Source: an uncultured Bacteroidales bacterium
GTDB lineage: Bacteria > Bacteroidota > Bacteroidia > Bacteroidales > UBA12077
Assembly: GCA_964504155.1 (NCBI GenBank)
Contig: CAZDCZ010000001.1
Location: forward strand, 28,451-92,450
DNA: 64,000 bases
Reading direction: 5' to 3'
Shown: positions 1-24,553 of the stretch, piece by piece
How the letters are laid out: every line of letters begins with the position of its first letter
Numbering within the stretch: the stretch's first letter is position 1
Made by a program: the position numbers and the translations under genes
The notes under the pieces: generated by a model
What the model was told of the DNA's origin: nothing
The model's database searches: none
The model's input: only the letters and a program-made list of their open reading frames with translations

Positions 1-1408
1 CTACAAATTCTAATTTTGTTTTATCGATAATTACACTTTGTTTCTTAACTAATTTATTAGTTCTAAGCTTAGCTAGTTTTGTTTTTACAATTTCTTTTCC
101 GGTAGAATTCTTATAAACAGAACGAATAATACTCTCGCATAATCCTCCCGAAACAGACAACAACATAGATGCTGTGCTTCTATTATTAAAAGGTTCGTCG
201 GCCATTTCAGGTTCTATATTATCCATACTTAGTCCGTACAATTGTATTAGTTTGGCCAATTCTCGTGTAGTAATAACTAAATCAATATCAGAAACCCCTT
301 TATATGTCATTTCTTCGCGCGATGCTTCAAATTTTTTAGCCGTACATGGCATTATAGAAACAGAAAATATTTCTTCGGGATGTAAATTCTCTTTATCTGC
401 AACACTTCTCTTTATAAGAGCTCCAAGTATTTGCTGAGGCGATTTTACTTTCGATACATACGGAATTAAATCGGGATACGATTGTTCCATATATTTAATC
501 CATGCCGGACAGTTAGAACTAATTAATGGGGTTTCCCTTTTATTTTTTATTATATCATTTAATTCAAGTGCTTGTTCGTGAATTGCAATATCTGCTCCAA
601 ATGATGAATAAAATACTTTGTCGAACCCTATTTTTTTCAATATTGCATTTAAGTATTGAGAAATATCTTTACCCGATTTCAAACCTAATTCATCTGCTAA
701 AGAAACTGATACAGAAGGAGAATACTGTGCTACTACTTTAATTTTCGGGTTATTTAATACCTCATTTAATAAATCGAAATTTGTTCTTTCGTATAATGCT
801 CCGGTAGGACAAACCAATAAACATTGTCCACAAATAATGCAATTAGAAAAATTAATATCTTTGTCCATACTTGTGGCAATAGTTGTATTATTTCCTCTAT
901 TAATAATATCTAATGCAGAGACACCAATAATTTCGTTACAAACTCTCACACAGCGTTCACATAAAATACACTTAGCTGTATCTCTAATTATTCCAAGGCT
1001 AGAATAATCGAGTTTTGCATTTGCCTTTTTTCCTGTAATTTTTCTCTCCCTAATATTTAACTCATAGGCTAGTTTCTGTAGCTCGCAATTTTGATTTTTA
1101 ATACAATAGAAACAATCGTCGGGATGATTCGAAAGCAATAATTCAACAATCATTTTTCGGGCTTTAATAACACGAGAAGAATGAGTTTTGATTTTCATCC
1201 ACCCTTCAATAGGATATGAACACGAAGGTATTAATTCTTTTTTTCCTTCGATTTCGACAACACACATTCTACAAGCCCCTGTAGGAGTAAAGCCTTCCAT
1301 ATGACACAAAGTAGGTACTTTAATTCCATTTTTGGTTAAAGCTTCGAGAATAGTTTCTCCTTTTTTTGCTTTTATTACTTCGTTATTAACTTCTATATCG
1401 ATATCCAT
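1..1408 (-). CDS. [FeFe]-hydrogenase catalytic-subunit paralog 1 (HydA-like); C-terminus cut by the window edge
   Basis: Absent from the ORF track because there is no stop in the window. My translation from the ATG at 1408 gives MDIDIEVNNEVIKAKKGETILEAL. It has an N-terminal 2Fe-2S motif (CHMEG..CRMCVVE), HPDDCFYCIKNQNC, two ferredoxin CxxCxxCxxxC(P) motifs, and the H-domain motifs SSNCPAW (506-520) and MPCTAKKFE. The L3 motif lies outside the window. Confidence 0.85.
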   Translation of the reverse strand, partial: MDIDIEVNNEVIKAKKGETILEALTKNGIKVPTLCHMEGFTPTGACRMCVVEIEGKKELIPSCSYPIEGWMKIKTHSSRVIKARKMIVELLLSNHPDDCFYCIKNQNCELQKLAYELNIRERKITGKKANAKLDYSSLGIIRDTAKCILCERCVRVCNEIIGVSALDIINRGNNTTIATSMDKDINFSNCIICGQCLLVCPTGALYERTNFDLLNEVLNNPKIKVVAQYSPSVSVSLADELGLKSGKDISQYLNAILKKIGFDKVFYSSFGADIAIHEQALELNDIIKNKRETPLISSNCPAWIKYMEQSYPDLIPYVSKVKSPQQILGALIKRSVADKENLHPEEIFSVSIMPCTAKKFEASREEMTYKGVSDIDLVITTRELAKLIQLYGLSMDNIEPEMADEPFNNRSTASMLLSVSGGLCESIIRSVYKNSTGKEIVKTKLAKLRTNKLVKKQSVIIDKTKLEFV

Positions 1409-1427
1409 ATTATTTCTATATTGAATT

Positions 1428-3368
1428 TTACATACTCAAAATAGCATTAAACTTACAGCTTTTATAACATATTCCACACCCAATACAATTATCCTGAACA
1501 ATAAAATGGGGAGCTTTTTGTGTTCCGATAATAGCCCCTGTTGGGCATTTTTTAGCACAAATAGTACAACCAATACATGCTTCTACATCAATTATAAAAG
1601 TTCTAAGTTCTTGACAAACTCCAGCCTTACATTCTCTATCGAAGATATGTTCTTCATATTCTTCTCTAAACCATTTTAATGAACTTAGAACCGGATTAGC
1701 AGCTCTTTTTCCTAAACCACACAAAGATGTTTCTTTAATTACCTCAGCTAAATTTTCTAATTGCATTACTCCCTTAAACCTGTATAAAGTTGTATGATTA
1801 TCGTTATCGACAGGTTTTTTTGTAATATTTTCTAGAATCTCACTAATTCTTCTAGTTCCTTCTCTACAAGGTATACATTTTCCGCAACTCTGATTTTTTA
1901 AAAAATCTGCAAAATATTTTACTGTATCAATAACGCAAGTATCCTCATCAAGCACTATTATTCCGCCATCGAGATTTTCCCCAATATTTTCATTTTCAAA
2001 ATCAATTATCTCATCGAGATGTTGTTCTGCAACAACTCTTCCGGTAGGTCCTCCAATATGTAAACCCTTAAATTTTTTCCCATTAAGAACTCCTCCTCCC
2101 ACTCTGAAAATAATTTCGCGCAATTTTGTTCCAAATTCAACTTCAATAATGCCACAATTTTCAACTTTCCCGGCTAACGAAAATACTTTTGTTCCTTTAC
2201 TACTATCAATACCAATGGCTCTATACCATTTGGGGCCTTTTTCAAATATCTTAGGAAGATTAATTAATGTTTCCGAATTATTAACAACTGTTGGTGCTCC
2301 AAACAAACCTTTCGTAGCAGGATATGGAGGTTTATTAATAGGCATTCCTCTTTCTCCTTCGAGAAATTTAATAAGGGCAGTTTCTTCTCCGCATACATAA
2401 GCCCCGGCACCTTTTCTTATAACAATATCAAAACTATTTCCGCTCTGAAAAACATCGTGTCCTAACAAACCATACTCTTTTGCAGAATTAATAGCTATTG
2501 TTAAACGCTCTATTGCCAATTTATTTTCCGTATCGACATAGATATATGCTTTTTTTGCTCCTATTCCATATAATGCTATTGCTATACCTTCAATTAATTT
2601 ATGAGGATCGCTTTCCATTATAAACCGTTCTGAAAAAGCTCCGGGATCTCCTTCGCCGGCATTACAAATCAAGTATTTATTATTACTATCGGTATTTATT
2701 GCTATCTTCCATTTCTTCCCTGTTAAAAATCCCTCGCCCCCTCTTCCTTTCAATTTACTTTTTTCAATAATTTCAGCCACTTCATCGCGAGTATAATTAT
2801 TCATTACCTTAACAAATGACTTATATCCACCATTAGCAATATATTCATCAATAGACTCGGGATTAATTTTTCCACAATTATTTAAAATAACTCTTTGTTG
2901 ATTAGCAAAAAAAGCTATTTCATCGATAAATGTAATTCCTTCCCATGGTTCCAGTAAATCATTTCGAAATTGTCCAAATATATATTCTAAATTAATATGT
3001 TTACTGAAAACTCCTTCAAATACTGTTTGAAAATTTTCTAAATTAATATTCTGTAAAATCAAATTTGTTTTTCCCGGAAGTTGGATTCCTATCATAGGGT
3101 CTTTCGAACACAATCCAAGAGAACCCATTTTTATTAATTCATAATTTTTAGAATCCTTTTCTAAATATTCTTCAATAGCTAAAAATAATTCTTCGATTCC
3201 TCCAATTATACTACTACTTGTATATTCAACAGAAATAACAATATCATCAACCTTATCTCTTCTAAGAAATTGAAGTTTTTCTTTGTCTTCTTTTGTATAT
3301 TCTTCTATATCTCTTAAAAGTATTCTTGAGATTAAAAATTCCTTATAATTTTCAATATCATTATTCAT
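1428..3368 (-). CDS. hydB: NuoF-like flavoprotein subunit (HydB paralog 1) with a Cys-poor thioredoxin-like N-terminal domain and a C-terminal 2x[4Fe-4S] domain
   Basis: NuoF-type motifs are present but deviant: GRGGEGFLTGKKW and CNAGEGDPGAF. The N3 cluster motif SCGKCIPCREG..CGLG is intact. The C-terminus carries CIGCTICAKKCP and CIGCGICYKSC. It lies 20 nt upstream of HydA paralog 1. Confidence 0.88.
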   Translation of the reverse strand: MNNDIENYKEFLISRILLRDIEEYTKEDKEKLQFLRRDKVDDIVISVEYTSSSIIGGIEELFLAIEEYLEKDSKNYELIKMGSLGLCSKDPMIGIQLPGKTNLILQNINLENFQTVFEGVFSKHINLEYIFGQFRNDLLEPWEGITFIDEIAFFANQQRVILNNCGKINPESIDEYIANGGYKSFVKVMNNYTRDEVAEIIEKSKLKGRGGEGFLTGKKWKIAINTDSNNKYLICNAGEGDPGAFSERFIMESDPHKLIEGIAIALYGIGAKKAYIYVDTENKLAIERLTIAINSAKEYGLLGHDVFQSGNSFDIVIRKGAGAYVCGEETALIKFLEGERGMPINKPPYPATKGLFGAPTVVNNSETLINLPKIFEKGPKWYRAIGIDSSKGTKVFSLAGKVENCGIIEVEFGTKLREIIFRVGGGVLNGKKFKGLHIGGPTGRVVAEQHLDEIIDFENENIGENLDGGIIVLDEDTCVIDTVKYFADFLKNQSCGKCIPCREGTRRISEILENITKKPVDNDNHTTLYRFKGVMQLENLAEVIKETSLCGLGKRAANPVLSSLKWFREEYEEHIFDRECKAGVCQELRTFIIDVEACIGCTICAKKCPTGAIIGTQKAPHFIVQDNCIGCGICYKSCKFNAILSM

Positions 3369-3435
3369 TTACTGTAGTCTCTTAAATTAATACAATATCT
3401 TTTGTTTAAATATTTTATTTTTTCATTACAACTAA

Positions 3436-3891
3436 CTAATTATTTATATATGAATCTATAATTTCGTTAAAACTATCAAGAGTTAAATTAGTATAATACT
3501 TATCGTTAATCGACATAACAGGCCCCATACTGCAAGCTCCCATACATTCTGTAATTTCGAGACTAAATAGATTATTTTTTGCAGTCTCTTTATCTCTTAT
3601 CTTTAGTTTTTTATATAATTCAGTAATTAATAATTTACTTTTATTAATATGACAAGTAGTCCCCTCACAAATTTTTATATGATATTTTCCTTTCGGAACA
3701 AATCGAAAATAGCTATAGAATGTAGCTAATCCGTAAATTTTACTAGTTGCAATTCCAATATATTCTCCAATCTTTTTAATTGCATCCTCCGATAAATAAC
3801 CTTGTTGTTCTTGCACATCTTGTAATATAGGAACTAGATCATCTTTTTTAACAAATGGATACTTATTAAGTATTGAATTAATATCAAACAT
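3436..3891 (-). CDS. hydC: NuoE-like [2Fe-2S] subunit (HydC paralog 1)
   Basis: Similar to the other two NuoE-like ORFs (YLSEDAI..ATFYSYF..ICEGTTCH..CMGACSMGPV). The track ORF starts at 3933. I place the start at the internal Met (MFDINS, 3891) because a -7 promoter box sits at 3931-3938. Confidence 0.85.
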   Translation of the reverse strand: MFDINSILNKYPFVKKDDLVPILQDVQEQQGYLSEDAIKKIGEYIGIATSKIYGLATFYSYFRFVPKGKYHIKICEGTTCHINKSKLLITELYKKLKIRDKETAKNNLFSLEITECMGACSMGPVMSINDKYYTNLTLDSFNEIIDSYINN

Positions 3892-3930
3892 TGCTATGAA
3901 TTTTACATAATTTACACAAAACAAATAACA

Positions 3931-3985
3931 CAAATATAAAATATTTTTTGTTATTTTCTAAACATTGTTATTTTAATAACATTAC
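3931..3985 (-). promoter_or_regulatory. Promoter/operator site 1: TGTTA-N6-TAACA palindrome (3966-3981), AAAAATAACAAA block and -7 box TATATTTG (3931-3938)
   Basis: Read directly from the sequence. The same architecture recurs at 16172-16225 and 24561-24613. This copy lies in the divergent region between hydC paralog 1 and the hydS operon. Confidence 0.6.
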
Positions 3986-4121
3986 AAAAATCTAAATATC
4001 AATATAATTACTCACTAATAGCTATAAAAATTATTACAATAGAAATAATTTAATTAATTTTGATATTTATTTTCTAATAAATACAGATAGAGTTAATTAA
4101 ATATTGTTAAAATATTTCTGA

Positions 4122-4379
4122 ATGGGAAATGAATCTATAACAAAAACAGAAATAGTAATTTGCTTAGGAAGTTCTTGTTTTTCGCGAGGAAATAAAGAAA
4201 TTGTAAATATTATTAAAGCATATATTAAAGATAATCAATTAGAAGATAAAATTAATTTCCATGGTTGTCATTGTTTTAGTAAATGTAGCGAAGGACCGAT
4301 TCTAAAAGTCAACGAAAAAATACATACTGAAATATCAACTCAAAATATTCTTAATATATTAAATACAATTTCATTTTAA
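4122..4379 (+). CDS. Small thioredoxin-like [2Fe-2S] ferredoxin
   Basis: 85 aa with a CLGSSC..GCHCFSKCSEGP cysteine pattern (Cx4C...Cx3C) in a NuoE/HydC-like fold. It is the first gene of the plus-strand hydS operon. Confidence 0.65.
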   Translation: MGNESITKTEIVICLGSSCFSRGNKEIVNIIKAYIKDNQLEDKINFHGCHCFSKCSEGPILKVNEKIHTEISTQNILNILNTISF

Positions 4380-4462
4380 ATATTAATATATTAACTAACT
4401 TACAGAATATTTTTTTATAAATTTCTGTATAGCATCAATTTAAGTATCAAATAATCTTATCT

Positions 4463-6325
4463 ATGTCGATAATAAAAATAAATACTGATAAATGCGATTT
4501 AAGTTACTCGTGTGTACGAGTTTGTTCGGTAAAAGCAATTGAAATTAAAACAAATACTAATTTCGCAAGAATAATCCCTGAACGATGCATTGGTTGTGGC
4601 GACTGCTTTTCTGTTTGTCCGAATAATGCAATAGAATATATAGATTCTAAAGAAATAACAAAAGAAATATTAAAATCGGCAAGTAAAACAGTTGCCATTG
4701 TTGACCCCAGTATTTCAGGAGAATTTTCTGATATTACTGATTATAGGAAATTTGTACAAATGATACGCGAATTAGGGTTTAACTATGTAAATGAAATTTC
4801 ATTTGGAGCCGATATTATTTCGAAAAAATACAAAGATTTATTAAAAGAATTTAAAGGCAAATATTATATAACATCAGCTTGCCCGGTTGTTGTATCATAT
4901 ATTCAAAAATACAAACCCGAACTTATAAACAATCTAATTCCTTTAGTATCGCCTACGCTTGCAACTGCAATTATAGTACAAAAACTTTATGGAAAAGATA
5001 TTAAAATAATTTCTATTGGTCCATGCATAGAGAATAAAAACGACGATAAATATATAAATAACAAAGATAAAAAAATTGATGCATCAATCACATTTACAGA
5101 ATTACGCGAACTCTTTAACGAATATAATATTTCTGAAAGCAAATTAGAATATTCCGATTTTGATGCTCCTATTGGATATAAAGGCTCTCTTCTGCCTATT
5201 TCTAATGGAATTCTTCAGGCTAGCGAAATTAACGAAAATCTATTAGATGGGAATATCATTACATCGGAAGGGAAAAACAATATTAAAGATGTAACAAATC
5301 AATTTTATAAAAAAATTACTTTCATAAAAAAACATTTCAATCTATTTTTTTGTAAGGGATGTATTATGGGGCCGGGAATGTCGGCAAATGGAGAGAAATT
5401 TACCAGAAGCTCTATGGTTACTAAATATGCCCGAAAAAGATTGAAAAATTTTAACGAAAGTAAATGGCAAGAAGAAATTGACAAATATATAAATCTTGAC
5501 TACTCAACAAGTTTTTTTAACGACGACCAAAGGATTGAATCTCCTCCTAATGAAAAAATTCAAGAAGTATTAAAAGTTATAGGAAAAACAAATTCTCAAC
5601 GAGGATGTAACGCCTGCGGTTACAACACATGTAAAGAATTTGCAATTGCTGTATCGAAAGGTCTTGCAAAAACCGAAATGTGCTTAACATATGCTTTACA
5701 AAATAAACATGAATATATAGATGCTTTAAGTTTGACAAATACAAAACTTGCAAATACAAAAAAAGCACTCATTAAATCGGAACAAGAAGCAAGAAAAGAA
5801 AAAGAAATTGCCATAGAAGCATCCGAAACAGTAAATACTCTATTACAAAAACTACCTTCGGGTTTTGTAATTATAGATAATAAGCTAAAAATTATTCAAT
5901 CGAATAAAAGCTTTGTTAAACTTCTTGGCGACGAAGCAGAAGCTATAAATGAAGTAATTCCCGGACTAGAAGGTGCCGATTTAAAAACTCTTCTTCCTTA
6001 TAATATTTATACTCTTTTTAATAATGTAATATCGGAAAATAGCAATCTAAAAAATAAAGATGTTTATGTAAACAATAAACTCCTAAATCTATCGATATTT
6101 ATTATTAATAAAAACAAAACTGCAGGAGCTGTATTCAGAGATATGTATTCGCCAGAAGTACGAAAAGAAGAAGTAATTAATCGTGTTACAGATGTAATAG
6201 ATAAAAATCTGAAAATGGTACAAAAAATTGGTTTTATTCTTGGTGAAGAAGCATCGGAAACCGAACAAATGTTAAACTCGATTATTGAGTTTTACAAATC
6301 GGGAAATAATAAAAAGAAAATATAA
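4463..6325 (+). CDS. hydS: Sensory [FeFe]-hydrogenase-like protein with a PAS domain (HydS, Group C-like)
   Basis: N-terminal ferredoxin motifs (CIGCGDCFSVCP). H-domain with modified motifs TSACPVV (4871-4885), GPCIENK and FFCKGCIMGPG. An extra 4-Cys segment (CNACGYNTCKEF..C), then a coiled region and a PAS-like C-terminus (LPSGFVIIDNKLKIIQSNKSF). Confidence 0.8.
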   Translation: MSIIKINTDKCDLSYSCVRVCSVKAIEIKTNTNFARIIPERCIGCGDCFSVCPNNAIEYIDSKEITKEILKSASKTVAIVDPSISGEFSDITDYRKFVQMIRELGFNYVNEISFGADIISKKYKDLLKEFKGKYYITSACPVVVSYIQKYKPELINNLIPLVSPTLATAIIVQKLYGKDIKIISIGPCIENKNDDKYINNKDKKIDASITFTELRELFNEYNISESKLEYSDFDAPIGYKGSLLPISNGILQASEINENLLDGNIITSEGKNNIKDVTNQFYKKITFIKKHFNLFFCKGCIMGPGMSANGEKFTRSSMVTKYARKRLKNFNESKWQEEIDKYINLDYSTSFFNDDQRIESPPNEKIQEVLKVIGKTNSQRGCNACGYNTCKEFAIAVSKGLAKTEMCLTYALQNKHEYIDALSLTNTKLANTKKALIKSEQEARKEKEIAIEASETVNTLLQKLPSGFVIIDNKLKIIQSNKSFVKLLGDEAEAINEVIPGLEGADLKTLLPYNIYTLFNNVISENSNLKNKDVYVNNKLLNLSIFIINKNKTAGAVFRDMYSPEVRKEEVINRVTDVIDKNLKMVQKIGFILGEEASETEQMLNSIIEFYKSGNNKKKI

Positions 6326-6360
6326 CATCTTAGCTATTATTAAAAATATAAATAATTAAT

Positions 6361-7762: not shown

Positions 7763-7788
7763 AAATGTAAATATTCTATAAGAATAGC

Positions 7789-16648: not shown

Positions 16649-19600
16649 ATGACAAAAAACAATTTAAATAAAAACCAAGTTGAAAGTTTATCGAACAATA
16701 ACTATAATTCTTCTATTTCTGAGCAAAAAAATATAGAATCTAAACTAGAAAAATATAAAGCAATATTCGACAACTCGGCAGAAGGAATTGCATATATCAC
16801 AAACACAGGAAAGATTATAGATGTTAATAAAACATTTATAAATTGTACCGGCCTTTCTATTTTACATAAAGATATAATTGGGAAACATGTATTTTCTATT
16901 GCAAAGCAATTTATAGCAGCAAAAAACATTAACAATACTCTAAAAATTGTAAAACATTTGCTCTCAGGAAAAGACATTGATTCATTTGAGCTTATTACAA
17001 AAAATAAAAAAACACTTAGAATATCCCCCAGATTTATAGAAAAACAGGGAGGAATTGTAATAATAATCAGAGACATAACTGAGACAAAAAAAATAACTAA
17101 AGCACTCCATGAAAGCGAAGAACTCCATAAGAAAATAATACAAAATCAAGGTGAAGGAATGGGAATTGTTAACACAAACGAAATATTTATATATTCCAAT
17201 CCTGCTGCTCATGAAATTTTTGGGGTGCCATTAGGCACACTAAATGGCAGAAATGTGTTTGAATTTTTAGATGAAAAAGGGAAAAAAAAGATACTTAACG
17301 AAACTAAAAAACGAATTTCCGGAAAAAGATCTACATATGAATTTAATATTATACGGCCTGATGGAGAAGAACGAACTATACTATTAACTGCTTCTCCACA
17401 AAGTAATAATAATGGGGAGATAGTAAGCACATTTGGTATATATAGAGATATTACTCAAAGAAGAAAAACAGAAATTGCTTTACAAAATAGTGAAAAAAGC
17501 TTACGTAAAGCACAACAACTCTCTAAAGTAGCTTCTTGGGAAATAGATTTGATTAATAAAAAATTCTCTTGCTCAGATGAATTTTATAATATATACGAAA
17601 TAGAAAAACAAGAGATAAAAAGCAGCACTGAAATAATAAACAAATATGTTCATCCCGATGACAAAAAGTTTTTTAAATTATCGGAAAATCGTATCCCCAA
17701 AAACGAAGATTTAACTTCTATCGAGTTTCGAATTATTACTCCAAACAAAAATACAAAATGGATACACTCTTCTAATCCTGAAATAATATATAAAAATAAA
17801 AAAGCTGTTAAACTAATTGGCATAAACCAAGATATTACAGAAAGAAAAAATGCAGAATTAAAACTTTCGCAAAAAACTACAGAACTTACAGTTTTACTTG
17901 ATTTAATACCTGCTTTTGTTTATTTTAAAGATTTTAATTTAAACTATATTTCGGTAAATAAAGCATTAGCTAAAATATCGAAATATTCAGAAAATGAAAT
18001 ACCCGGAAAAAACGACCTTGGTATTTGGGATAAAGAAACTGCAAAAAAATACAGAGATAACGATAAAAAAATACTTGATATCGGAAAACCAAAATATAAC
18101 ATAATAGAAAAAGTGCAAAGAAAAGATGGGACAACATTCTGGTCGTCTACTTCAAAAGTTCCTTATTATAATAATAAAAATATATTAAAAGGACTGATTG
18201 GTATTACTTGGGATATTTCGGAAATAAAAGGAAACGAAGAAAAATTAAAACAAGCAATTAAAGAAGCTAAAAATGCAAACAGATTAAAAAGTGATTTTCT
18301 TGCTAATATGAGTCACGAAATTCGTACTCCGATGAATGCTATATTAGGCTTCTCCGAAATTCTTAAGAGTAAACTCAGTAACTTTCCTGAATATTCGAGT
18401 TTTATTAACGGAATATATAATAATGGACAGAATCTTCTTCAATTAATAAATGACATTTTGGATTTATCGAAAATTGAAGCCAACAAACTGGAAATACAAA
18501 AAGGTACAGTTAATCTATCTAAAATTATTACAGAATTTAAGAATATTTTTTCTCTACAAATTAAAGAGAAAAAAATAAATTTCAATATTAATATCGACGA
18601 AGATCTTCCTGATGTATTACGACTTGATCAGACACGAATACGGCAAATTTTATTCAATTTAATTGGGAATGCTGTAAAATTTACCAACCAAGGAGAAATA
18701 AGAGTTTCGGTAAAATTTAGGAATAATTTAACATTAGAAAATAAAATTGATTTGTTTTTTGAAATAAAAGACACAGGAATTGGAATTCCAATTGATCAAC
18801 AAAAAGAAATTTTCGAAGCATTTGTTCAACAAGATAGTCAAAGCACACGAAAATACAAAGGCACAGGACTTGGATTAACAATAACAAAACGCTTAGTTGA
18901 AATGATGGATGGAAACATTTCTGTTTCAAGCATCCCTAATGTAGGCTCGTCATTTAAAATATTTTTAAAAAACGTTGACATTCCAAATATTAATTTAAAA
19001 GGAGTAAACAATATTACAGAAAATGTAAATCGAAATATTATTTTCGACAAAGAGACTATTTTACTTGTAGAAGACTCAGAATCGAACAGACAAATAATAA
19101 AACTGTTTCTTTCGGCACACAATTTAAATGTTATTGAAGCAAGGAATGGAAAAATAGCTCTTGATATTGCAAGAAAAATAAAGCCTTCGCTAATACTAAT
19201 GGACATACAAATGCCTGAAATGACAGGAGATATAAGCGCTAAACTTATTAAAGAAAATTCGGAATTAAAATCAATACCAATTATTGCATTAACAGCATAT
19301 ACAATAACAGATCAAATAAATAAATATAAAGATCTTTTCAACTACTACATTCTAAAACCGGTGTCGAAAAATAAATTAATAAGTGTATTAAGTAAATATT
19401 TACCCTATAAAACAACTATTAATAATCAGGAAAATTTAGAATCAATAAATTATCTTGCAGAAATAGAAAAAATACAAAATTTCGATTCTCAATTAATTTA
19501 CGAAATTAAAAGTACGATAATTCCTGTATTTTTAATTGTGTCTAAAGGTATTTCAATTGATGAAATATTAAATTTCTCGAACCAGCTAATTAAATTAGGC

Positions 19601-19738
19601 AAAAAATATAATATTTCTCCATTATTAGATTATGCAAAAGATTTACAGGCTGCAACAAATGAATTTCGTTTTGGAGAAATTGAAACACTACTAAATTTAT
19701 TTAGTAATATCTCGAATGTAATAATAGGGAAAAAATAA
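16649..19738 (+). CDS. Hybrid sensor histidine kinase (multiple PAS domains, HisKA, HATPase, receiver, C-terminal Hpt-like region)
   Basis: H-box SHEIRTPMNAILGFSE. N/G boxes NLIGNAVKFT..DTGIGI..GTGLGL. Receiver ILLVEDSESN..LILMDIQMPEMTG. Several PAS-like repeats lie upstream. Confidence 0.85.
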   Translation: MTKNNLNKNQVESLSNNNYNSSISEQKNIESKLEKYKAIFDNSAEGIAYITNTGKIIDVNKTFINCTGLSILHKDIIGKHVFSIAKQFIAAKNINNTLKIVKHLLSGKDIDSFELITKNKKTLRISPRFIEKQGGIVIIIRDITETKKITKALHESEELHKKIIQNQGEGMGIVNTNEIFIYSNPAAHEIFGVPLGTLNGRNVFEFLDEKGKKKILNETKKRISGKRSTYEFNIIRPDGEERTILLTASPQSNNNGEIVSTFGIYRDITQRRKTEIALQNSEKSLRKAQQLSKVASWEIDLINKKFSCSDEFYNIYEIEKQEIKSSTEIINKYVHPDDKKFFKLSENRIPKNEDLTSIEFRIITPNKNTKWIHSSNPEIIYKNKKAVKLIGINQDITERKNAELKLSQKTTELTVLLDLIPAFVYFKDFNLNYISVNKALAKISKYSENEIPGKNDLGIWDKETAKKYRDNDKKILDIGKPKYNIIEKVQRKDGTTFWSSTSKVPYYNNKNILKGLIGITWDISEIKGNEEKLKQAIKEAKNANRLKSDFLANMSHEIRTPMNAILGFSEILKSKLSNFPEYSSFINGIYNNGQNLLQLINDILDLSKIEANKLEIQKGTVNLSKIITEFKNIFSLQIKEKKINFNINIDEDLPDVLRLDQTRIRQILFNLIGNAVKFTNQGEIRVSVKFRNNLTLENKIDLFFEIKDTGIGIPIDQQKEIFEAFVQQDSQSTRKYKGTGLGLTITKRLVEMMDGNISVSSIPNVGSSFKIFLKNVDIPNINLKGVNNITENVNRNIIFDKETILLVEDSESNRQIIKLFLSAHNLNVIEARNGKIALDIARKIKPSLILMDIQMPEMTGDISAKLIKENSELKSIPIIALTAYTITDQINKYKDLFNYYILKPVSKNKLISVLSKYLPYKTTINNQENLESINYLAEIEKIQNFDSQLIYEIKSTIIPVFLIVSKGISIDEILNFSNQLIKLGKKYNISPLLDYAKDLQAATNEFRFGEIETLLNLFSNISNVIIGKK

Positions 19739-19771: not shown

Positions 19772-20956
19772 ATGAATGCTGAAGAAATACAATTATCTAA
19801 ACCTAATGTATTAATTGTAGATGACACTGAAGAAAACTTGCGTCTATTAAGTAATCACTTATACAATAAAGGAATAAATGTGATTATAGCAAAAGATGGT
19901 AAAACGGCTCTAGAAATAGTTAACACTAAACCTCCGGATTTAATATTGCTAGATATTATGATGCCGGGAATTAATGGATTCAAAGTATGTCAAGAACTTA
20001 AAAAAAACACAAAAACTAAAAATATTCCCATAATATTTCTTACAGCTAAAACCGAAATTAACGATATTGTTAAAGGTTTTACTATTGGGGCAGTTGATTA
20101 TATTACAAAGCCTTTTAATTCTACCGAACTATTATCAAGAGTATTTACTCATATAGAACTTAAAAAATCGAAAGATATAATAAAAATACATAGTGGACAT
20201 GTGGAAGAGTTGAATGCAATACTAAATAAAAAAAATAAACAACTATACAAGCAAAACGAAGAACTAAAAACATTAAACATAACAAAAGATAAATTATTTT
20301 CGATAATTGCACACGACCTTAAAACTCCGTTCAATCAGCTTATTGAAATATCGGAATTAACCCTTATGGATATCGATAATTTAAGCTTATACGATTTAAA
20401 AGAAAATATAAGGCAAATACATTTGGCGTCGCTAAATGGCGAAAACCTTTTACAAAACTTATTAGATTGGGCGAAACATAAATTAGGTTCAATTAAATTC
20501 AATCCTCAAAAAATTATATTGTCGAAAGTTATTAATACTACATTTATTTATCTTAAAGATTTAGCAAACGAAAAAAACATTACACTTGTCTCAAATATAA
20601 AAGAAGATATTACTGTTACCGCCGAAGATGAAATGCTAAATATAATTATTCGCAACCTTATTTCTAATGCAATAAAATTTACAAATACAGGTGGAAGAGT
20701 TGAAATAAGCAATAAAGCAAACAACAATTATCAAATAATTACAATAGAAGATAATGGCATAGGTATTACACCTGAAGATTTAACAAAACTATTCAGAATG
20801 GATGAAAATTACTCAATTGAGGGTACAGCTCAAGAAAAAGGAACCGGAATAGGATTAATAATATGTAAAGAATTTATTAAGAAACATGAAGGGAAAATAT
20901 GGGTAGAAAGTAAATTAGGAGAAGGCAGTAAATTTAAATTTTCGATACCAATATAA
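19772..20956 (+). CDS. Response-regulator receiver fused to a histidine kinase core
   Basis: Receiver LIVDDTEENL..LILLDIMMPGINGF..KP. H-box-like FSIIAHDLKTPFN. HATPase NLISNAIKFT..DNGIGI..GTGIGL. No DNA-binding domain. Confidence 0.85.
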   Translation: MNAEEIQLSKPNVLIVDDTEENLRLLSNHLYNKGINVIIAKDGKTALEIVNTKPPDLILLDIMMPGINGFKVCQELKKNTKTKNIPIIFLTAKTEINDIVKGFTIGAVDYITKPFNSTELLSRVFTHIELKKSKDIIKIHSGHVEELNAILNKKNKQLYKQNEELKTLNITKDKLFSIIAHDLKTPFNQLIEISELTLMDIDNLSLYDLKENIRQIHLASLNGENLLQNLLDWAKHKLGSIKFNPQKIILSKVINTTFIYLKDLANEKNITLVSNIKEDITVTAEDEMLNIIIRNLISNAIKFTNTGGRVEISNKANNNYQIITIEDNGIGITPEDLTKLFRMDENYSIEGTAQEKGTGIGLIICKEFIKKHEGKIWVESKLGEGSKFKFSIPI

Positions 20957-21074: not shown

Positions 21075-22865
21075 CTAGTATGATTTTCTCTTTGTATAGT
21101 GAGTATGTAATAACTCGTGAGATTTATGACCAAGAGGCTCGCCCAAGAAATTTTTATAAATTTCTTTAATCTCAGGATTTTCGTGAGATTTACGAATTGG
21201 GAGTCCTTCGTCTTCGGCATAAATAGCATCTGCCCGTTTCTGACGAATTTCAGGAGTTGTAGGTATTGGTTGACCTCCGCCACCAAGACAACCACCGGGA
21301 CATGCCATAATCTCGATAAAGTGCCAATTTCCTTCTCCCGATTTAACGGCATCCATAACTTTTTTAGCATTTGTTAAACCATGAGCCACAACAGTTTTTA
21401 GTTCAACGCCATCAAGAAATTTCCAAGCATCAACAGGATTTTCAATAAGAATTGAAGCTTCCCTTACGCCTTCCATTCCACGTACAGGAGTTATATTAAG
21501 ATTATCGAATGGGACTTCTCGTTCGGTAACAATTTCGTATGCAGTACGCAAAGCTGCTTCCATAACTCCACCTGTAGCACCAAATATAACTCCTGCACCC
21601 GAAGAATTACCCATTAAGCTATCGAACTTACTATCGGACAATGAAAGAAAATCGACCCCTGTTTGCTTAATCATAACAGCTAATTCGCGAGTGGTTAATA
21701 CAAAATCGACATCTTTATATCCACTATCGCGCATTTCGGGTCGATCTGCCTCGTACTTCTTAGCAGTACATGGCATAATAGAAACAGATACTATCTTTGT
21801 AGGATCAAGTTTTTTCTTCTGGGCATAATATGTTTTAGCAAGAGCACCAAACATTTGTTGAGGAGACTTACAGGTAGAAACATTTTCTAAATAGTCGGGA
21901 TAATTATGTTCAATAAATTTAATCCAACCCGGAGAGCAAGATGTAGTCATTGGAAGTTTTATGCTACTATCTTTATCAACCAATGCTTTTTTAAGACGAG
22001 TTAATAATTCAGTACCTTCTTCCATAATAGTTAGGTCGGCAGTAAAATCAGTATCAAGAACTGAATCGAAGCCAATTTTTCTAAGAGCAGTAACCATCTT
22101 ACCTGTAACTCTATTTCCTACATCGAAGCCTAAATCTTCGCCTAAAGCAACACGAACAGCAGGAGCTGTTTGAACAATAACATGAGTATCTTCATCGTAA
22201 ATTGCGTCCCAAACTTGGTCGATATAACTTTTCTCAACTAATGCACCGGTAGGACAGCGATTCACACACTGACCACAACTTGTACAAATAACTTCAATCA
22301 TTGGATTATCGAAGAAAGTAGAAATTTTCATTTTATCGCCTTTATGAGCAACGCCTAAAGCACTAACATGTTGTAATTCGGTACAGGTTCTAACACATCT
22401 CTGACAACGGATACATTTACTATCGTCTTTGATTATAGCTGGAGAAAATCTATCAATAGTATAGTTTTTATCTTCAACAAGATCTAAGAATAAATGTTCA
22501 CCTTTTATCATATCAATTGAGAGATCCTGCAATTCGCAATTCCCATTTTTGTAACATTTAGTACAATCGGCATTATGTTCAGAAAGCAACAATTCAATTA
22601 TATGTCGTCTCGAATTTCTTACTTTAAGACTATTTGTTAATATCTCCATATTGCTAGTAGCAGGAGTAGCACATGACGCAACAAGGTTCTTAACACCTTT
22701 TTGCTCAACAACACAAACTCTACAATTACCTGCAACACATAAATCTTCGTGATAACAAAGAGTAGGAATCTTTATATTTAATTTCTTAGCTGCATCTAAG
22801 ATAGTGCTTCCTTTTTCTACACTAACTTCAATACCGTCTATTTTTAATTTAACTGTATCAGACAT
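21075..22865 (-). CDS. hydA: [FeFe]-hydrogenase catalytic subunit paralog 3, with a TSCSP variant of motif L1
   Basis: Same domain order as paralog 2. MPCTAKKYE and EIMACPGGCLGGGGQP are canonical, but L1 reads TSCSPGW (21930-21944; checked on the DNA as ACA TCT TGC TCT CCG). Confidence 0.92.
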   Translation of the reverse strand: MSDTVKLKIDGIEVSVEKGSTILDAAKKLNIKIPTLCYHEDLCVAGNCRVCVVEQKGVKNLVASCATPATSNMEILTNSLKVRNSRRHIIELLLSEHNADCTKCYKNGNCELQDLSIDMIKGEHLFLDLVEDKNYTIDRFSPAIIKDDSKCIRCQRCVRTCTELQHVSALGVAHKGDKMKISTFFDNPMIEVICTSCGQCVNRCPTGALVEKSYIDQVWDAIYDEDTHVIVQTAPAVRVALGEDLGFDVGNRVTGKMVTALRKIGFDSVLDTDFTADLTIMEEGTELLTRLKKALVDKDSSIKLPMTTSCSPGWIKFIEHNYPDYLENVSTCKSPQQMFGALAKTYYAQKKKLDPTKIVSVSIMPCTAKKYEADRPEMRDSGYKDVDFVLTTRELAVMIKQTGVDFLSLSDSKFDSLMGNSSGAGVIFGATGGVMEAALRTAYEIVTEREVPFDNLNITPVRGMEGVREASILIENPVDAWKFLDGVELKTVVAHGLTNAKKVMDAVKSGEGNWHFIEIMACPGGCLGGGGQPIPTTPEIRQKRADAIYAEDEGLPIRKSHENPEIKEIYKNFLGEPLGHKSHELLHTHYTKRKSY

Positions 22866-22898
22866 ATTATAATTTTTTAAATTTTATATACTTATTTA

Positions 22899-24062
22899 TT
22901 AGTAAATCATTTCTTCTTTAAAGTTTTCAACTATTGAAGAAAATGAATTAGCAACAGACTGTCCTAAACCACATTTAGCAGTAATTTTCATAGTATCTGT
23001 TAACTTTATTAATGTATTAAGATAAGTAGATGGTTTTTCTCCTCTTTTAACAGCTTCGAGACCTTTTCTTAATTGTTGAGTTCCAACTCTGCAAGGAGTA
23101 CATTGTCCACAAGATTCTTCTTCGAAGAACTCTACATAATTTTTAAGCACATTATACATAGATCTAGAACTATTAAAAAGCATCATAGATCCACCGGTAG
23201 GCACACCTTCGAATCCAATAATAGTATCTTTAAATTTCTTTCGAGGAACACAGAATCCTGAAGCACCACCAACCTGAACAGCTTTAGTATCTCCATCGCC
23301 AAATTCGTCAACAAAATCGGAAAGAGTCATCCCAAGTTCGAGTTCATAAATACCAGCTATAGGAGTATCTCCCGAAACAGAAAATAATTTAGAACCTCTT
23401 GAATCATCGGTACCCAATTTTTTAAATTTCTCAGCTCCAATATTATTAATCATAAATGCATAAACAAGAGTTTCTACATTATTAATAACAGTAGGCTTAT
23501 TTCTAAATCCTGCAACAGTTGGATATGGAGGTTTATTTCTTGGTTCTCCTCGTTTTCCTTCCATTGATTCGAATAGTGCGCTTTCTTCACCACAAATATA
23601 AGCTCCGCACCCCATCAATAAATGAATTTCGAAATCGTTTCCAAGCTGTTTAATAAGTATATTAAATTTATCTATTTCATTCTGCAAGTCTTTTTTTAGA
23701 AATTCATATTCGCCACGTAAATAAATATAACCATATTTAGCGCCTATTACTTTAGCACAAATAGCCATTCCTCCGAAAACCTTTTGAGGCACTCGAGTAA
23801 GAATTTCTCTATCTTTAAAAGTTCCGGGTTCGCCTTCATCGGCATTACATACTATATATTTTTCTTTGGGTTTTTCTAATCCGGTATATTTCCATTTTAA
23901 GCCGGTAGGGAAACCAGCTCCTCCTCGACCTTTTAGTCCGGATTCAAGAATTTTTTCTAATATTTTTTCATTTGACAATTTTAATGTTTTAGAAAGAACA
24001 TCTTTACAAGAACAATCTTCACTAAAAATCAGGTCAACTCTTTTAAGTCGTTTATTTGACAT
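22899..24062 (-). CDS. hydB: Short NuoF-like flavoprotein subunit (HydB paralog 3), lacking both terminal Fe-S domains
   Basis: 387 aa. GRGGAGFPTGLKW, CNADEGEPGTF and SCGQCTPCRVG..CGLG are present. There is no N-terminal Trx-like domain and no C-terminal CxxCxxCxxxCP motifs. Confidence 0.9.
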   Translation of the reverse strand: MSNKRLKRVDLIFSEDCSCKDVLSKTLKLSNEKILEKILESGLKGRGGAGFPTGLKWKYTGLEKPKEKYIVCNADEGEPGTFKDREILTRVPQKVFGGMAICAKVIGAKYGYIYLRGEYEFLKKDLQNEIDKFNILIKQLGNDFEIHLLMGCGAYICGEESALFESMEGKRGEPRNKPPYPTVAGFRNKPTVINNVETLVYAFMINNIGAEKFKKLGTDDSRGSKLFSVSGDTPIAGIYELELGMTLSDFVDEFGDGDTKAVQVGGASGFCVPRKKFKDTIIGFEGVPTGGSMMLFNSSRSMYNVLKNYVEFFEEESCGQCTPCRVGTQQLRKGLEAVKRGEKPSTYLNTLIKLTDTMKITAKCGLGQSVANSFSSIVENFKEEMIY

Positions 24063-24085
24063 AATAATAATCTTTAATATGTTAA

Positions 24086-24553
24086 TTATTTATTCTTCAT
24101 ATAATCTCTAATAATCTCAGCAACTTTCTCGGGAGTAAGTTCTGTATATGCTTCATCGTTAATTAGCATAGCCGGACCTTTATGGCACCACCCCAAACAG
24201 TTTGTTTCTAACAAAGAGAACTTTTTATCTTTTGTTGTTTCTCCGATTTTAATTTTTAACAAATCTTCAAGAGTTTCAATAATCTGTTTTTTTCCTTTCA
24301 TATCGCAAGTAATAGTTTTACAGATACGAATTACAAATTTCCCACGAGGTTCTGTATCTAGAAAAGAATAAAATGTAGCAGTTCCATATACTAAAGCTGC
24401 CGACATATCAAGTTCTCTAGCGACTTCTACCATAGCATCTTCAGAAAGATATCTTTTTTCTTTGATGATGCCTTGCAAAATAGGAAGCAAACTTTCTCTT
24501 GTTGTTCCATGTTCTCCTGCTAATTCTTTTACTAAGTCTTTAATTTCTGGCAT
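24086..24553 (-). CDS. hydC: NuoE-like [2Fe-2S] subunit (HydC paralog 3)
   Basis: CKTITCDMKG...CLGWCHKGP motif. It is the first gene of the third operon. Confidence 0.9.
   Translation of the reverse strand: MPEIKDLVKELAGEHGTTRESLLPILQGIIKEKRYLSEDAMVEVARELDMSAALVYGTATFYSFLDTEPRGKFVIRICKTITCDMKGKKQIIETLEDLLKIKIGETTKDKKFSLLETNCLGWCHKGPAMLINDEAYTELTPEKVAEIIRDYMKNK

What the first reader, a model, noticed from the sequence alone, without database searches (positions are those of the whole stretch)
1..24553. Dense [FeFe]-hydrogenase island: three HydABC-type operons plus two hydrogenase-like sensors in 24.5 kb
The sequence shows three separate NuoE-like/NuoF-like/HydA-like gene sets on the minus strand (positions 1-3891, 7789-12293, 21075-24553). 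It also shows two additional H-domain proteins with modified active-site motifs (4463-6325, 13996-15351).

The three catalytic paralogs differ exactly at the L1 motif: SSNCP, TSCCP and TSCSP. The three flavoprotein subunits differ in domain content: 646 aa with a Cys-less N-terminal domain, 597 aa full-length, and 387 aa core only.

This looks like functional specialisation (different electron partners, catalytic bias or H2 thresholds) rather than simple redundancy. It is unusual density for a Bacteroidota-like genome. The maturase genes hydE/F/G are not in the window.
Basis: partly seen in the sequence, partly recalled or inferred. Interest (0 to 1): 0.7.

Follow-up and report, generated by a model that had tools for sequence, protein, structure and literature searches.

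The report
Three-hydrogenase redox island in a Bacteroidales genome
An uncultured Bacteroidales bacterium packs three different NADH-linked [FeFe]-hydrogenase complexes and their hydrogen sensors side by side behind one shared promoter element; each module is already known, but one catalytic subunit has lost its usual proton channel.

Summary
The window holds three intact NuoE/NuoF/HydA gene sets and two sensor-type H-domain proteins, with the stated L1 motifs and flavoprotein lengths.

A near-identical contig (L001, 99.955%) shows the island continues past the left edge. There it adds the rest of HydA1, a third sensor fused to a histidine kinase, two receiver proteins and Rex.

The sets are old paralogs (HydA 39-52% identical), not recent duplicates.
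- **Set 2** carries every published marker of an electron-bifurcating enzyme.
- **Set 3** carries every marker of the non-bifurcating NADH-only type.
- **Set 1** is the "sub-type V" cluster with two flanking sensors, already described in Bacteroidota in 2024.

So the specialisation reading holds, but the modules are known kinds. TSCSP is common and occurs in a solved bifurcating enzyme.

Two results go beyond the finding:
- HydA1 has lost five of eight canonical proton-pathway residues yet is under purifying selection (dN/dS about 0.1). All 36 sequenced relatives that carry the upstream sensor lack Glu279.
- A 34-bp double palindrome occurs exactly three times in 64 kb, once upstream of each operon. 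It co-occurs with rex in relatives.

No hydEFG is in the window.

The parts
2..1408 (-). HydA1 (set 1 catalytic subunit), N-terminal 469 of 572 aa. L1 is SSNCPAW. E279Q, R286I, C299N and S320K lie inside the window. The C-terminal 103 aa, carrying M497L and H569Y, lie beyond the left edge.
   Evidence: Residue-level alignment to CpI. Scores 642 bits, below the 765 cut-off of NCBIfam NF040763.
1428..3368 (-). HydB1/NuoF1 flavoprotein, 646 aa. It has the FMN/NADH core and the C-terminal 2x[4Fe-4S] domain. The N-terminal thioredoxin-like domain has lost 3 of its 4 cluster Cys.
3436..3891 (-). HydC1/NuoE1, thioredoxin-like [2Fe-2S] subunit, 151 aa.
   Evidence: PF01257, E = 8e-49.
3948..3981 (.). 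Double-palindrome operator 1 (two TGTTA-N6-TAACA sites, 17 bp apart), 57-90 bp upstream of the nuoE1 start, in the divergent intergenic region.
4122..4379 (+). 85-aa thioredoxin-like [2Fe-2S] ferredoxin, the first gene of the divergent sensor unit.
   Evidence: It is conserved next to HydS-PAS in the related loci.
4463..6325 (+). HydS sensor, group C type, 620 aa. It has 2x[4Fe-4S], an H-domain with TSACP and GPC motifs, a Cx2Cx4Cx16C motif and a weak C-terminal PAS match.
6361..7542 (+). SpoIIE/PP2C-type phosphatase, 393 aa, partner of the PAS sensor.
7789..8277 (-). HydC2/NuoE2, 162 aa.
8296..10071 (-). HydA2, 591 aa, with canonical TSCCP and a canonical proton pathway.
   Evidence: (NF040763, 902 bits).
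10084..11877 (-). HydB2/NuoF2, 597 aa, with the full cofactor set and every bifurcating-type marker.
11898..12293 (-). 131-aa HydD/BfuD-like protein. The assignment is tentative. It has no Pfam hit above threshold, a faint thioredoxin-like ferredoxin match and only one Cys.
   Evidence: and position in the operon.
12364..12906 (-). Histidine-kinase-like ATPase, 180 aa.
12903..13676 (-). PHP-domain protein, 257 aa.
13633..13980 (-). DRTGG-domain protein, 115 aa (match below the Pfam cut-off).
13996..15351 (-). HydS sensor, group D (M2e) type, 451 aa. It has no PAS domain. Its motifs are SSFCP, TPC (Met353 to Thr) and Cx2Cx4Cx16C.
   Evidence: Criteria taken.
15358..15819 (-). Histidine-kinase-like ATPase, 153 aa.
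15776..16120 (-). DRTGG-domain protein, 114 aa, the first gene of the set 2 string.
16188..16221 (.). Double-palindrome operator 2, 68-101 bp upstream of the DRTGG gene start, in the divergent region shared with the kinase gene.
16649..19738 (+). Hybrid PAS histidine kinase with receiver domain, 1029 aa. A link to hydrogen control rests on position only.
19772..20956 (+). Receiver-histidine kinase, 394 aa.
21075..22865 (-). HydA3, 596 aa, with TSCSPGW and a canonical proton pathway.
   Evidence: (NF040763, 877 bits).
22899..24062 (-). HydB3/NuoF3, 387 aa, core only. It lacks the N-terminal [2Fe-2S] and C-terminal 2x[4Fe-4S] domains and carries every non-bifurcating marker.
24086..24553 (-). 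HydC3/NuoE3, 155 aa.
24577..24610 (.). Double-palindrome operator 3, 24-57 bp upstream of the nuoE3 start.
   Evidence: The same element sits upstream of the orthologous operon in L089.

Best explanation
This is a chromosomal hydrogen and redox-balancing locus of an uncultured, low-GC, probably fermentative Bacteroidales bacterium. It holds three non-redundant NADH-linked [FeFe]-hydrogenase complexes, three hydrogenase-like H2 sensors and, just past the left edge, the NADH-sensing repressor Rex.

**Set 2 (gene order D-B-A-C).** It has the full cofactor set. I predict it is the electron-confurcating enzyme that makes H2 from NADH plus reduced ferredoxin. A group D sensor cassette precedes it.

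**Set 3 (gene order C-B-A).** Its flavoprotein is core-only. I predict it is the ferredoxin-independent NADH:H2 enzyme, which can release H2 only at very low H2 pressure.

**Set 1 (gene order C-B-A, then a sensor kinase).** This is the Bacteroidota form of the 'sub-type V' cluster, with a second sensor and a PP2C phosphatase transcribed divergently. In this lineage the catalytic subunit keeps all four H-cluster Cys but has lost most of the canonical proton pathway. Its flavoprotein has lost the N-terminal [2Fe-2S] ligands. I therefore predict a slow or kinetically altered enzyme.

**Regulation.** All three operons carry the same 34-bp double palindrome in their upstream regions. Its geometry matches a Rex operator, so they are probably repressed together and released when NADH rises. 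The H2 sensors then set which enzyme runs.

**Shown versus inferred.** Gene content, motifs, conservation and the shared DNA element are shown. Enzyme activities, cofactor occupancy, the identity of the DNA-binding protein and the sensor outputs are inferred.
For: **Gene map and domains.**

**Old paralogs.**

**Structural relatives.** The best solved relatives are bifurcating HydABC subunits 8a6t, 7q4v and 7p5h.

**Flavoprotein markers (criteria, tested).**
- NuoF2: GDPGAFMDR, GAGAF, GGPSG, four N-terminal Cys, C-terminal 2x[4Fe-4S].
- NuoF3: GEPGTFKDR, GCGAY, GGASG, no extra Fe-S domains.
- NuoF1: GDPGAFSER, GAGAY, GGPTG.

**Literature match.** The published sub-types cover enzymes lacking the B3-B5 clusters (non-bifurcating), B-A-C gene order with BfuD, and bfuT downstream of bfuA with a second bfuT upstream of bfuC in Bacteroidota.

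**Conserved module.** NuoE1-NuoF1-HydA1 is found in 81 loci (L001 plus 80 species-level genomes). The sensor kinase follows in 75 of them.

**Proton pathway.**
- Window HydA1 has E279Q, R286I, C299N, S320K and H569Y.
- All 36 loci with the upstream PAS sensor lack Glu279.
- 23 of 27 loci without that sensor are fully canonical.
- The HydA3 type is canonical in 120 of 120 relatives.
- In CpI, E279Q/A and C299A/S leave under 1% activity.

**Selection.** dN/dS for HydA1 is 0.08-0.11.

**Sensors.** They fit the published group C and group D definitions.

**Operator.**
- The composite pattern (written after the three sites had been seen) matches only those three places in 64 kb; no shuffle gave a match.
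- Each copy lies upstream of an operon.
- It is conserved in L088 and L089.
- It is present upstream of nuoE1 in 40 of 42 loci of the Glu279-less clade and in 0 of 27 of the other clade, in step with rex.
- It occurs almost always once per 20-kb locus, at that promoter.
Against: - No activity, expression or binding data exist for any component.
- The bifurcating versus non-bifurcating markers come from 17 sequences and are predictive only.
- NuoF1 is mixed on those markers, so the coupling of set 1 cannot be called.
- The canonical Rex box TTGTGAA-N4-TTCACAA is not enriched in the window (3 matches against 8.8 expected). The operator half-site differs from it, and a CRP/FNR-type protein would fit the same geometry.
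- The association between proton-pathway loss, the upstream sensor, rex and the operator may reflect one clade's shared ancestry rather than functional coupling.
- hydEFG, which all six H-domain proteins need, was not found in the window.
- The left part of the island is read from a near-identical contig, not from the window itself.
Confidence: 0.7

Rival explanations
1. Set 1 is a fully competent metabolic hydrogenase that moves protons by a different route, as proposed for group D enzymes. The loss of Glu279 and Cys299 then changes pH optimum or catalytic bias rather than abolishing turnover.
For: - Purifying selection acts on HydA1.
- All four H-cluster Cys, Lys358, Met353, Glu282 and Ser319 are kept.
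- An alternative pathway has been shown to be plausible in TamHydS.
- C299D, which occurs in 8 of the 81 loci, keeps 30-80% activity in CpI.
- Many clade members keep Cys299 and lack only Glu279.
Against: - No new conserved protonatable residue appears in the Glu279-less clade. Only seven clade-specific positions were found, none acidic or His.
- The window protein stacks five losses, including Asn at 299 and Tyr at 569.
- E279Q alone leaves under 1% activity in two model enzymes.
Confidence: 0.3
2. Set 1 is a decaying relic on its way to becoming a pseudogene, and only sets 2 and 3 matter.
For: - Set 1 proteins evolve much faster than set 2 between the same genomes: 51-58% against 83-84% identity.
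- Several residues normally described as strictly conserved are lost.
- In a relative, L085, the neighbouring sensor kinase is split.
Against: - All three set 1 ORFs are full length.
- dN/dS is 0.08-0.14 among lineages that all already lack Cys299.
- The module, its sensors and its promoter element are conserved across 81 loci (L001 plus 80 species-level genomes).
- Every metal-cluster ligand of the H-cluster is invariant except position 300 (Ser in 9 of 81).
Confidence: 0.04
3. The three sets are redundant copies from recent tandem duplication or a recently acquired mobile island.
For: Close spacing on one strand. Group A3 clusters are known to move between phyla.
Against: - Identity between the sets is 32-52%, and gene orders and domain contents differ.
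- Set 3 keeps the same right-hand neighbours (S46 peptidase, Maf, UbiA, HAD, DUF2520, acyl-CoA dehydrogenase) in another Bacteroidales genome.
- No transposase or integrase was found within or at the edges of the island, and GC content is unremarkable.
- Each set's closest relatives are Bacteroidales.
Confidence: 0.03

Closest known systems
Sub-type V BfuABC-BfuT cluster with two bfuT genes in Bacteroidota (Perlabentimonas gracilis, Tenuifilum thalassicum, Williamwhitmania taraxaci; Zheng & Huang 2024, PMC11406978)
   Same: Set 1 has the same layout: C-B-A order, a sensor hydrogenase fused to a histidine kinase directly downstream of the catalytic gene, and a second PAS-type sensor hydrogenase upstream of bfuC.
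   Different: The sections of that paper I read (sections 7-9, by excerpt) do not mention the loss of Glu279 and Cys299, the loss of the N-terminal [2Fe-2S] ligands in BfuB, the linked rex gene or the shared promoter element. Here the cluster also lies next to two other sub-types.
Structurally solved electron-bifurcating HydABC (PDB 7p5h, 7q4v, 8a6t; from my own knowledge these are Thermotoga maritima, Acetobacterium woodii and Thermoanaerobacter kivui)
   Same: Set 2 has the same subunits and cofactor motifs, and these are the best PDB matches for all HydA and NuoF proteins. The HydA1 chain of 7q4v carries TSCSPGW, like HydA3.
   Different: Set 2 has B-A-C gene order and an extra 131-aa protein with one Cys. 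Identities are moderate. Bifurcation is predicted, not measured.
Non-bifurcating NADH-dependent [FeFe]-hydrogenases (Syntrophomonas wolfei Hyd1ABC, Syntrophus aciditrophicus HydAB; Losey 2020, PMC7311640)
   Same: NuoF3 lacks the extra Fe-S domains. It has Thr/Lys in the NADH region, Tyr near FMN and no GGPSG, the published non-bifurcating pattern.
   Different: The host is a Bacteroidales bacterium, and HydA3 carries TSCSP. I did not align directly to the syntroph sequences. Activity is untested.
Putative sensory [FeFe]-hydrogenases: group C (TmHydS, RaHydS with PP2C) and group D (TamHydS)
   Same: The three HydS proteins keep the four H-cluster Cys, lack Cys299, replace Met353 with Gly or Thr, carry Cx2Cx4Cx16C and sit beside group A operons.
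   Different: Residue 299 here is Ala, Asp or Phe. One sensor is fused to a full HisKA-HATPase kinase. The PAS match in the 620-aa protein is below the Pfam threshold.
Rex (NADH/NAD+-sensing repressor) and its operator TTGTGAA-W4-TTCACAA
   Same: A protein with the Rex domains (Put_DNA-bind_N plus CoA_binding) is encoded in the module. The shared element has the same TGTxA-N6-TxACA geometry.
   Different: The half-site is TGTTA/TAACA rather than TGTGA/TCACA, and the sites come as a fixed tandem pair 17 bp apart. Binding is untested and the canonical box is not enriched.

Membership tests
Group A [FeFe]-hydrogenase catalytic subunit | Three H-cluster motifs carrying the four ligand Cys (positions 300, 355, 499, 503 in CpI numbering) | tested here: met
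   HydA1 and HydA2 have all four. HydA3 has Ser at 300, as do 120 of 120 relatives and the solved chain 7q4v.
Group A [FeFe]-hydrogenase catalytic subunit | Canonical proton pathway: Glu279, Glu282, Ser319, Cys299 (plus Arg286, Ser320, His569) | tested here: not met
   Met by HydA2 and HydA3. Not met by HydA1, which has Q279, I286, N299, K320 and Y569. HydA1 also scores below the NF040763 cut-off (642 against 765) and just below TIGR02512 (404.1 against 405.95).
Electron-bifurcating HydABC/BfuABC | HydA with adjacent NuoF-like and NuoE-like subunit genes | tested here: met
   All three sets.
Electron-bifurcating HydABC/BfuABC | Complete B1-B5 cluster set in the flavoprotein: N-terminal [2Fe-2S] and C-terminal 2x[4Fe-4S] | tested here: inconclusive
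   Set 2 meets it. Set 1 lacks 3 of the 4 N-terminal Cys but keeps the C-terminal clusters. Set 3 lacks both domains. The role of B5 is itself disputed.
Electron-bifurcating HydABC/BfuABC | Losey markers: Ala/Glu and Met in the NADH region, Phe near FMN, GGPSG | tested here: inconclusive
   NuoF2 has all of them. NuoF3 has none. NuoF1 has Ala, but Ser, Tyr and GGPTG at the other positions.
Electron-bifurcating HydABC/BfuABC | Ferredoxin- and NADH-coupled H2 turnover | not testable with these tools
   Needs purified enzyme.
Non-bifurcating NADH-dependent [FeFe]-hydrogenase | Flavoprotein without the extra Fe-S domains, with Thr/Ser and Lys/Ser/Ala in the NADH region, Tyr near FMN, and no GGPSG | tested here: met
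   NuoF3 has GEPGTFKDR, GCGAY and GGASG, and is 387 aa, core only.
Group C (M2f) sensory hydrogenase | N-terminal 2x[4Fe-4S], H-domain without Cys299, Cx2Cx4Cx16C, and a PAS or other signalling domain | tested here: met
   The 620-aa protein has TSACP, GPC and the Cys motif. Its PAS_8 match is E = 5.6e-4, below the gathering score, and a PP2C gene is adjacent. The 664-aa protein in L001 has the same core plus HisKA and HATPase.
Group D (M2e) sensory hydrogenase | No PAS, Met353 replaced by Ser/Thr, Cx2Cx4Cx16C, encoded upstream of a multimeric group A enzyme beside a kinase-like ATPase | tested here: met
   The 451-aa protein has TPC, the Cys motif read directly, no PAS and HATPase neighbours. 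The proposed group D proton residues were not checked.
Rex regulon | Rex protein with the winged-helix N-terminal domain and a Rossmann NAD(H) domain | tested here: met
   Precomputed Pfam hits PF06971 and PF02629 on the 207-aa protein in L001. It lies outside the window.
Rex regulon | Operator matching TTGTGAA-N4-TTCACAA | tested here: not met
   Only 3 matches at up to 3 mismatches against 8.8 expected. The shared element has the variant half-site TGTTA/TAACA with the same spacing.

The most novel reading that the evidence does not exclude
In this Bacteroidales clade, set 1 is a bifurcating-type HydABC complex whose catalytic subunit has converged on a sensor-like active site. It has no proton-relay Cys, no Glu279, and Leu at position 497 as in TamHydS. 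It would work as a slow H2- and NADH-responsive signalling or gating module together with its two flanking HydS sensors, the phosphorelay and Rex. That would be the first case of a sensory-type pocket arising inside a group A3 complex, with natural intermediates at every stage of proton-pathway loss.
Probability: 0.25. Interest if true: 0.75.

Novelty: new member of a known kind. Interest (0 to 1): 0.42.

Why it matters
**As an island.** It is a tidy example of something already described: anaerobes keeping a bifurcating and a non-bifurcating NADH hydrogenase, plus H2 sensors, to vent reducing power across a range of H2 pressures.

**Set 1.** Its relatives offer a natural series of group A enzymes running from a fully canonical proton pathway to one missing five of eight residues, all under selection and all in one conserved gene context. 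That makes two open questions directly testable. Are the 'strictly conserved' pathway residues really required? Does loss of the pathway mark a sensory role?

**The shared operator.** It is a concrete, testable handle on how Bacteroidales tie H2 production to NADH level.

Tried and rejected
- **Canonical Rex box.** A search for TTGTGAA-N4-TTCACAA found it not enriched. This led to footprinting of the nuoE1 upstream regions instead.
- **N-terminal domains.** Pfam and NCBIfam found nothing in the N-terminal 165 aa of NuoF1 or in the 131-aa protein. The fold assignment for NuoF1 rests on the PDB alignments.
- **Source organism.** The GTDB genome scan did not return the source species (best 62% identity). 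The cluster look-up gave no organism names. 'Bacteroidales' therefore rests on the names of homologs, the S46 peptidase and synteny.
- **Compensating residue.** A search for a new conserved protonatable residue in the Glu279-less clade found none.
- **Literature on the set 2 cassette.** Searches for the DRTGG/PHP/HATPase cassette next to hydrogenases gave nothing.
- **Distance between sets in another genome.** I could not measure the distance between set 1 and set 3 types on one large contig, because the look-up returned a different contig for P0012.
- **Structure prediction.** I did not run it. It would not decide proton transfer.
- **TSCSP.** I dropped the idea that it marks an impaired enzyme after finding it in the solved chain 7q4v and in all 120 relatives.

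Full report
**1. What is in the sequence**

- **Minus strand.** It carries three NuoE-like/NuoF-like/HydA gene sets: 2..3891, 7789..12293 and 21075..24553.
- **Plus strand.** A 620-aa H-domain protein (4463..6325) is followed by a SpoIIE/PP2C phosphatase (6361..7542).
- **Upstream of set 2.** A 451-aa H-domain protein (13996..15351) sits inside a string of small genes in the order DRTGG, HATPase, HydS, DRTGG, PHP, HATPase.
- **Between sets 2 and 3.** Two histidine kinases lie on the plus strand.
- **Motifs and lengths.** The L1 motifs are SSNCP, TSCCP and TSCSP. The flavoprotein lengths are 646, 597 and 387 aa, as stated.
- **Composition.** GC content is about 30% throughout.

**2. The island runs past the left edge**

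An exact-protein look-up found the same locus on 17 metagenome contigs. L001 matches window 1..13368 with 6 mismatches (99.955%). It shows that HydA1 is 572 aa with L3 motif EILTCPDGCINGGGQP. Nine bases downstream comes a 664-aa protein that joins a sensor-type H-domain to HisKA and HATPase domains. After it come a receiver protein, a receiver-kinase, Rex and RibF. The extended island therefore has six H-domain proteins: three catalytic-type and three sensor-type.

**3. Not recent duplicates, and a Bacteroidales host**

The paralogs are deeply diverged: HydA 39-52% identical, NuoF 39-48%, NuoE 32-42%. Gene orders also differ: C-B-A for sets 1 and 3, and D-B-A-C for set 2.

The closest relatives of HydA1 (53-63% identity beyond the same species) and of HydA3 (76-96%) are almost all from Bacteroidales or Bacteroidota metagenome-assembled genomes.

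The genes to the right of the island are a family S46 peptidase, Maf, UbiA, a HAD hydrolase, DUF2520, an acyl-CoA dehydrogenase with EtfAB, then ribosomal protein L10 and EF-Tu. In another Bacteroidales genome (L089) the set 3 operon has the same S46-Maf-UbiA-HAD-DUF2520-acyl-CoA dehydrogenase neighbours. Set 3 is therefore in a conserved chromosomal position, not on a mobile element.

No hydE, hydF or hydG is in the window.

**4. Set 2 and set 3: bifurcating versus NADH-only**

Losey et al. 2020 list markers in the flavoprotein that separate bifurcating from non-bifurcating NADH-dependent enzymes. These are extra Fe-S domains, Ala/Glu and Met against Thr/Ser and Lys/Ser/Ala in the NADH region, Phe against Tyr near FMN, and GGPSG.

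| Flavoprotein | NADH region | Near FMN | SLBB motif | Extra Fe-S domains | Call |
|---|---|---|---|---|---|
| NuoF2 | GDPGAFMDR | GAGAF | GGPSG | four N-terminal Cys and C-terminal 2x[4Fe-4S] | bifurcating on all |
| NuoF3 | GEPGTFKDR | GCGAY | GGASG | none | non-bifurcating on all |
| NuoF1 | GDPGAFSER | GAGAY | GGPTG | C-terminal clusters kept, N-terminal ligands lost | mixed |

Both HydA2 and HydA3 pass NCBI's model NF040763 (902 and 877 bits against a cut-off of 765). Both have the full canonical proton pathway.

TSCSP, in which the second Cys (the cluster ligand at position 300) is Ser, is present in all 120 closest relatives of HydA3. It is also present in the solved HydA1 chain 7q4v, and Ser at that position is reported as common in BfuA. 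It is not a sign of impairment. I could not test which residue binds the cluster in such enzymes.

**5. Set 1 is a published cluster type**

Zheng & Huang 2024 sorted group A3 clusters into five sub-types.
- Their sub-type II lacks the B3-B5 clusters and is held to be non-bifurcating, which matches set 3.
- Their sub-type III has B-A-C order with an ancestral BfuD, which matches set 2.
- Their sub-type V has a sensor hydrogenase with a histidine kinase domain downstream of bfuA. They note that three Bacteroidota species carry a second sensor gene upstream of bfuC.

That last layout is exactly set 1. They also report that several sub-types often coexist in one genome, and that nearly all carriers of sub-type II also have a bifurcating sub-type. 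My sub-type assignments rest on the described features, not on a tree with their sequences.

A scan of one genome per species returned 80 loci with the NuoE1-NuoF1-HydA1 module; L001, the window's own lineage, makes 81 analysed. The sensor kinase follows in 75 of 81. The divergent ferredoxin-sensor-PP2C unit is present in 36.

Set 2 lies next to this module in only two other genomes (L009, L013). It is absent from the flanks in L088 and L089. The three-way juxtaposition is therefore uncommon, while the parts are widespread.

**6. The proton pathway of HydA1 is dismantled**

The HMMER alignment to CpI is gapless across the relevant motifs. It gives, in CpI numbering: M277H, E279Q, R286I, C299N, S320K, M497L and H569Y. 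Glu278, Glu282, Ser319, Met353, Lys358 and the four ligand Cys are kept.

Duan et al. 2018 call Glu282, Ser319, Glu279 and Cys299 strictly conserved. They measured under 1% activity for E279A/Q and C299A/S, and 30-80% for C299D. Loss of Cys299 and of the pathway is the main argument for calling group C and D enzymes sensory. TamHydS also has Leu at position 497.

Across the 81 loci:
- Glu279 is kept in only 35.
- Cys299 is kept in 61. The rest have Asp (8), Ala (5), Ser (3), Asn (2), Val (1) or Phe (1).
- The ligands at positions 355, 499 and 503 are invariant.

The split is sharp. All 36 loci with the upstream PAS sensor lack Glu279. Of the 27 loci judged to lack that sensor, 23 are fully canonical (Mann-Whitney p = 6e-9, not corrected for shared ancestry). 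On a neighbour-joining tree of 120 metagenome relatives the Cys299 replacements fall in several separate places.

As a control, the HydA3 type is canonical at every one of these positions in 120 of 120 sequences.

I found no new conserved acidic or His residue in the Glu279-less clade.

**7. Set 1 is not decaying**

Against two relatives that also lack Cys299 (L086 with Asn, 89% identical; L085 with Phe, 81% identical), dN/dS is 0.08-0.11 for HydA1 and 0.09-0.14 for NuoF1.

Set 1 does evolve faster than set 2 between the same genome pairs: 51-58% against 83-84% identity.

In most clade members the N-terminal domain of NuoF1 keeps three Cys. In the window lineage only one is left.

**8. One promoter element for three operons**

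Footprinting the nuoE1 upstream regions of the related loci turned up a recurrent palindrome, TTGTTA-N6-TAACAA. In the window the sites occur as overlapping pairs 17 bp apart at 3948-3981, 16188-16221 and 24577-24610. These lie upstream of nuoE1, of the first gene of the set 2 string, and of nuoE3.

A 34-bp composite pattern, written from these three sites, matches them and nowhere else in the 64 kb, and no shuffle gave a match. Because the pattern was derived from the sites, this shows it is specific, not that it was found blind. The element aligns with the upstream regions of the orthologous operons in L088 and L089.

Sites are present upstream of nuoE1 in 40 of 42 loci of the Glu279-less clade and in 0 of 27 of the canonical clade. 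The rex gene follows the same split, 30 of 42 against 4 of 27. Across all fetched loci the tandem element occurs almost always once, at that promoter.

The spacing equals that of the Rex operator TTGTGAA-W4-TTCACAA (abstract shown). The half-site differs, however, and the canonical box is not enriched.

In sets 1 and 2 the element is followed by TATATTTG and TACCTTTG. From my own knowledge these fit the Bacteroidetes -7 consensus TAnnTTTG, which would place the operator over the promoter, as expected for a repressor. Rex binding is an inference. A CRP/FNR-type protein is the alternative.

**9. The sensors**

All three keep the four H-cluster Cys and the Cx2Cx4Cx16C motif (read).
- **The 620-aa protein** (TSACP, GPC, a weak PAS match, and a PP2C neighbour) fits group C.
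- **The 664-aa protein** (SSDCP, GPC, HisKA-HATPase) is the kinase-fused form.
- **The 451-aa protein** (SSFCP, TPC, no PAS, HATPase neighbours, upstream of the bifurcating-type set) fits the group D definition in Land et al. 2020.

**10. Verdict**

The modules are known kinds and the coexistence of sub-types is published, so the island itself is a new member of a known kind.

The parts worth following up are the eroded proton pathway in a selected, sensor-flanked group A3 enzyme and the shared Rex-like operator.

Noticed in passing
L001 versus L086 (set 1 region; window about 1..3900 and beyond the left edge): Synonymous divergence between two close strains is very uneven along the operon: NuoE1 dS 0.035, HydS-kinase 0.135, NuoF1 0.49, HydA1 0.74. 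This looks like allele replacement by recombination confined to hydA1-nuoF1.
   Followed up: partly
L085 (JGI 3300051640 contig, relative with 81% identical HydA1): The sensor kinase downstream of HydA1 is split into 187- and 435-aa pieces. RibF and the ABC transporter genes are also shortened or split, while HydA1 and NuoF1 are intact. The cause could be assembly frameshifts or real decay of the neighbours.
   Followed up: no
window 30352..34045 (-): An acyl-CoA dehydrogenase (567 aa) with EtfA and EtfB genes lies directly downstream. It may be a second flavin-based ferredoxin/NADH-linked complex close to the hydrogenases. An acyl-CoA dehydrogenase gene is also present in the syntenic region of L089.
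   Followed up: no
window 11898..12293 (-) and 2874..3368 (-): Both the 131-aa protein ahead of NuoF2 and the N-terminal domain of NuoF1 look like thioredoxin-like [2Fe-2S] folds that have lost their Cys ligands (one Cys each). Neither gets a Pfam hit above threshold.
   Followed up: partly
window 36157..48640 (-): Two very large ORFs (1427 and 1279 aa) lie next to ribosomal protein L10, with EF-Tu beyond them. By size and context they are probably rpoC and rpoB, so the island sits beside core housekeeping genes. The large ORFs were not scanned.
   Followed up: no
window 49486..52000: A XerC/D-type tyrosine recombinase lies at 49486..50367. The GC fraction then dips to 0.226 at 50-52 kb, the lowest in the window.
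   Followed up: no
window about 995-997 (HydA1 residue 138): The window encodes Leu where L001 and the clade consensus have Pro (DYSSLGII against DYSSPGII). This is one of the 6 differences between the two contigs.
   Followed up: no
L089:14992-21791: In a related Bacteroidales genome the set 3 operon is flanked on its other side by a cytochrome c assembly gene and an Mrp/Mbh-like membrane complex with a HycI protease. That genome therefore appears to have a membrane-bound hydrogenase as well.
   Followed up: no
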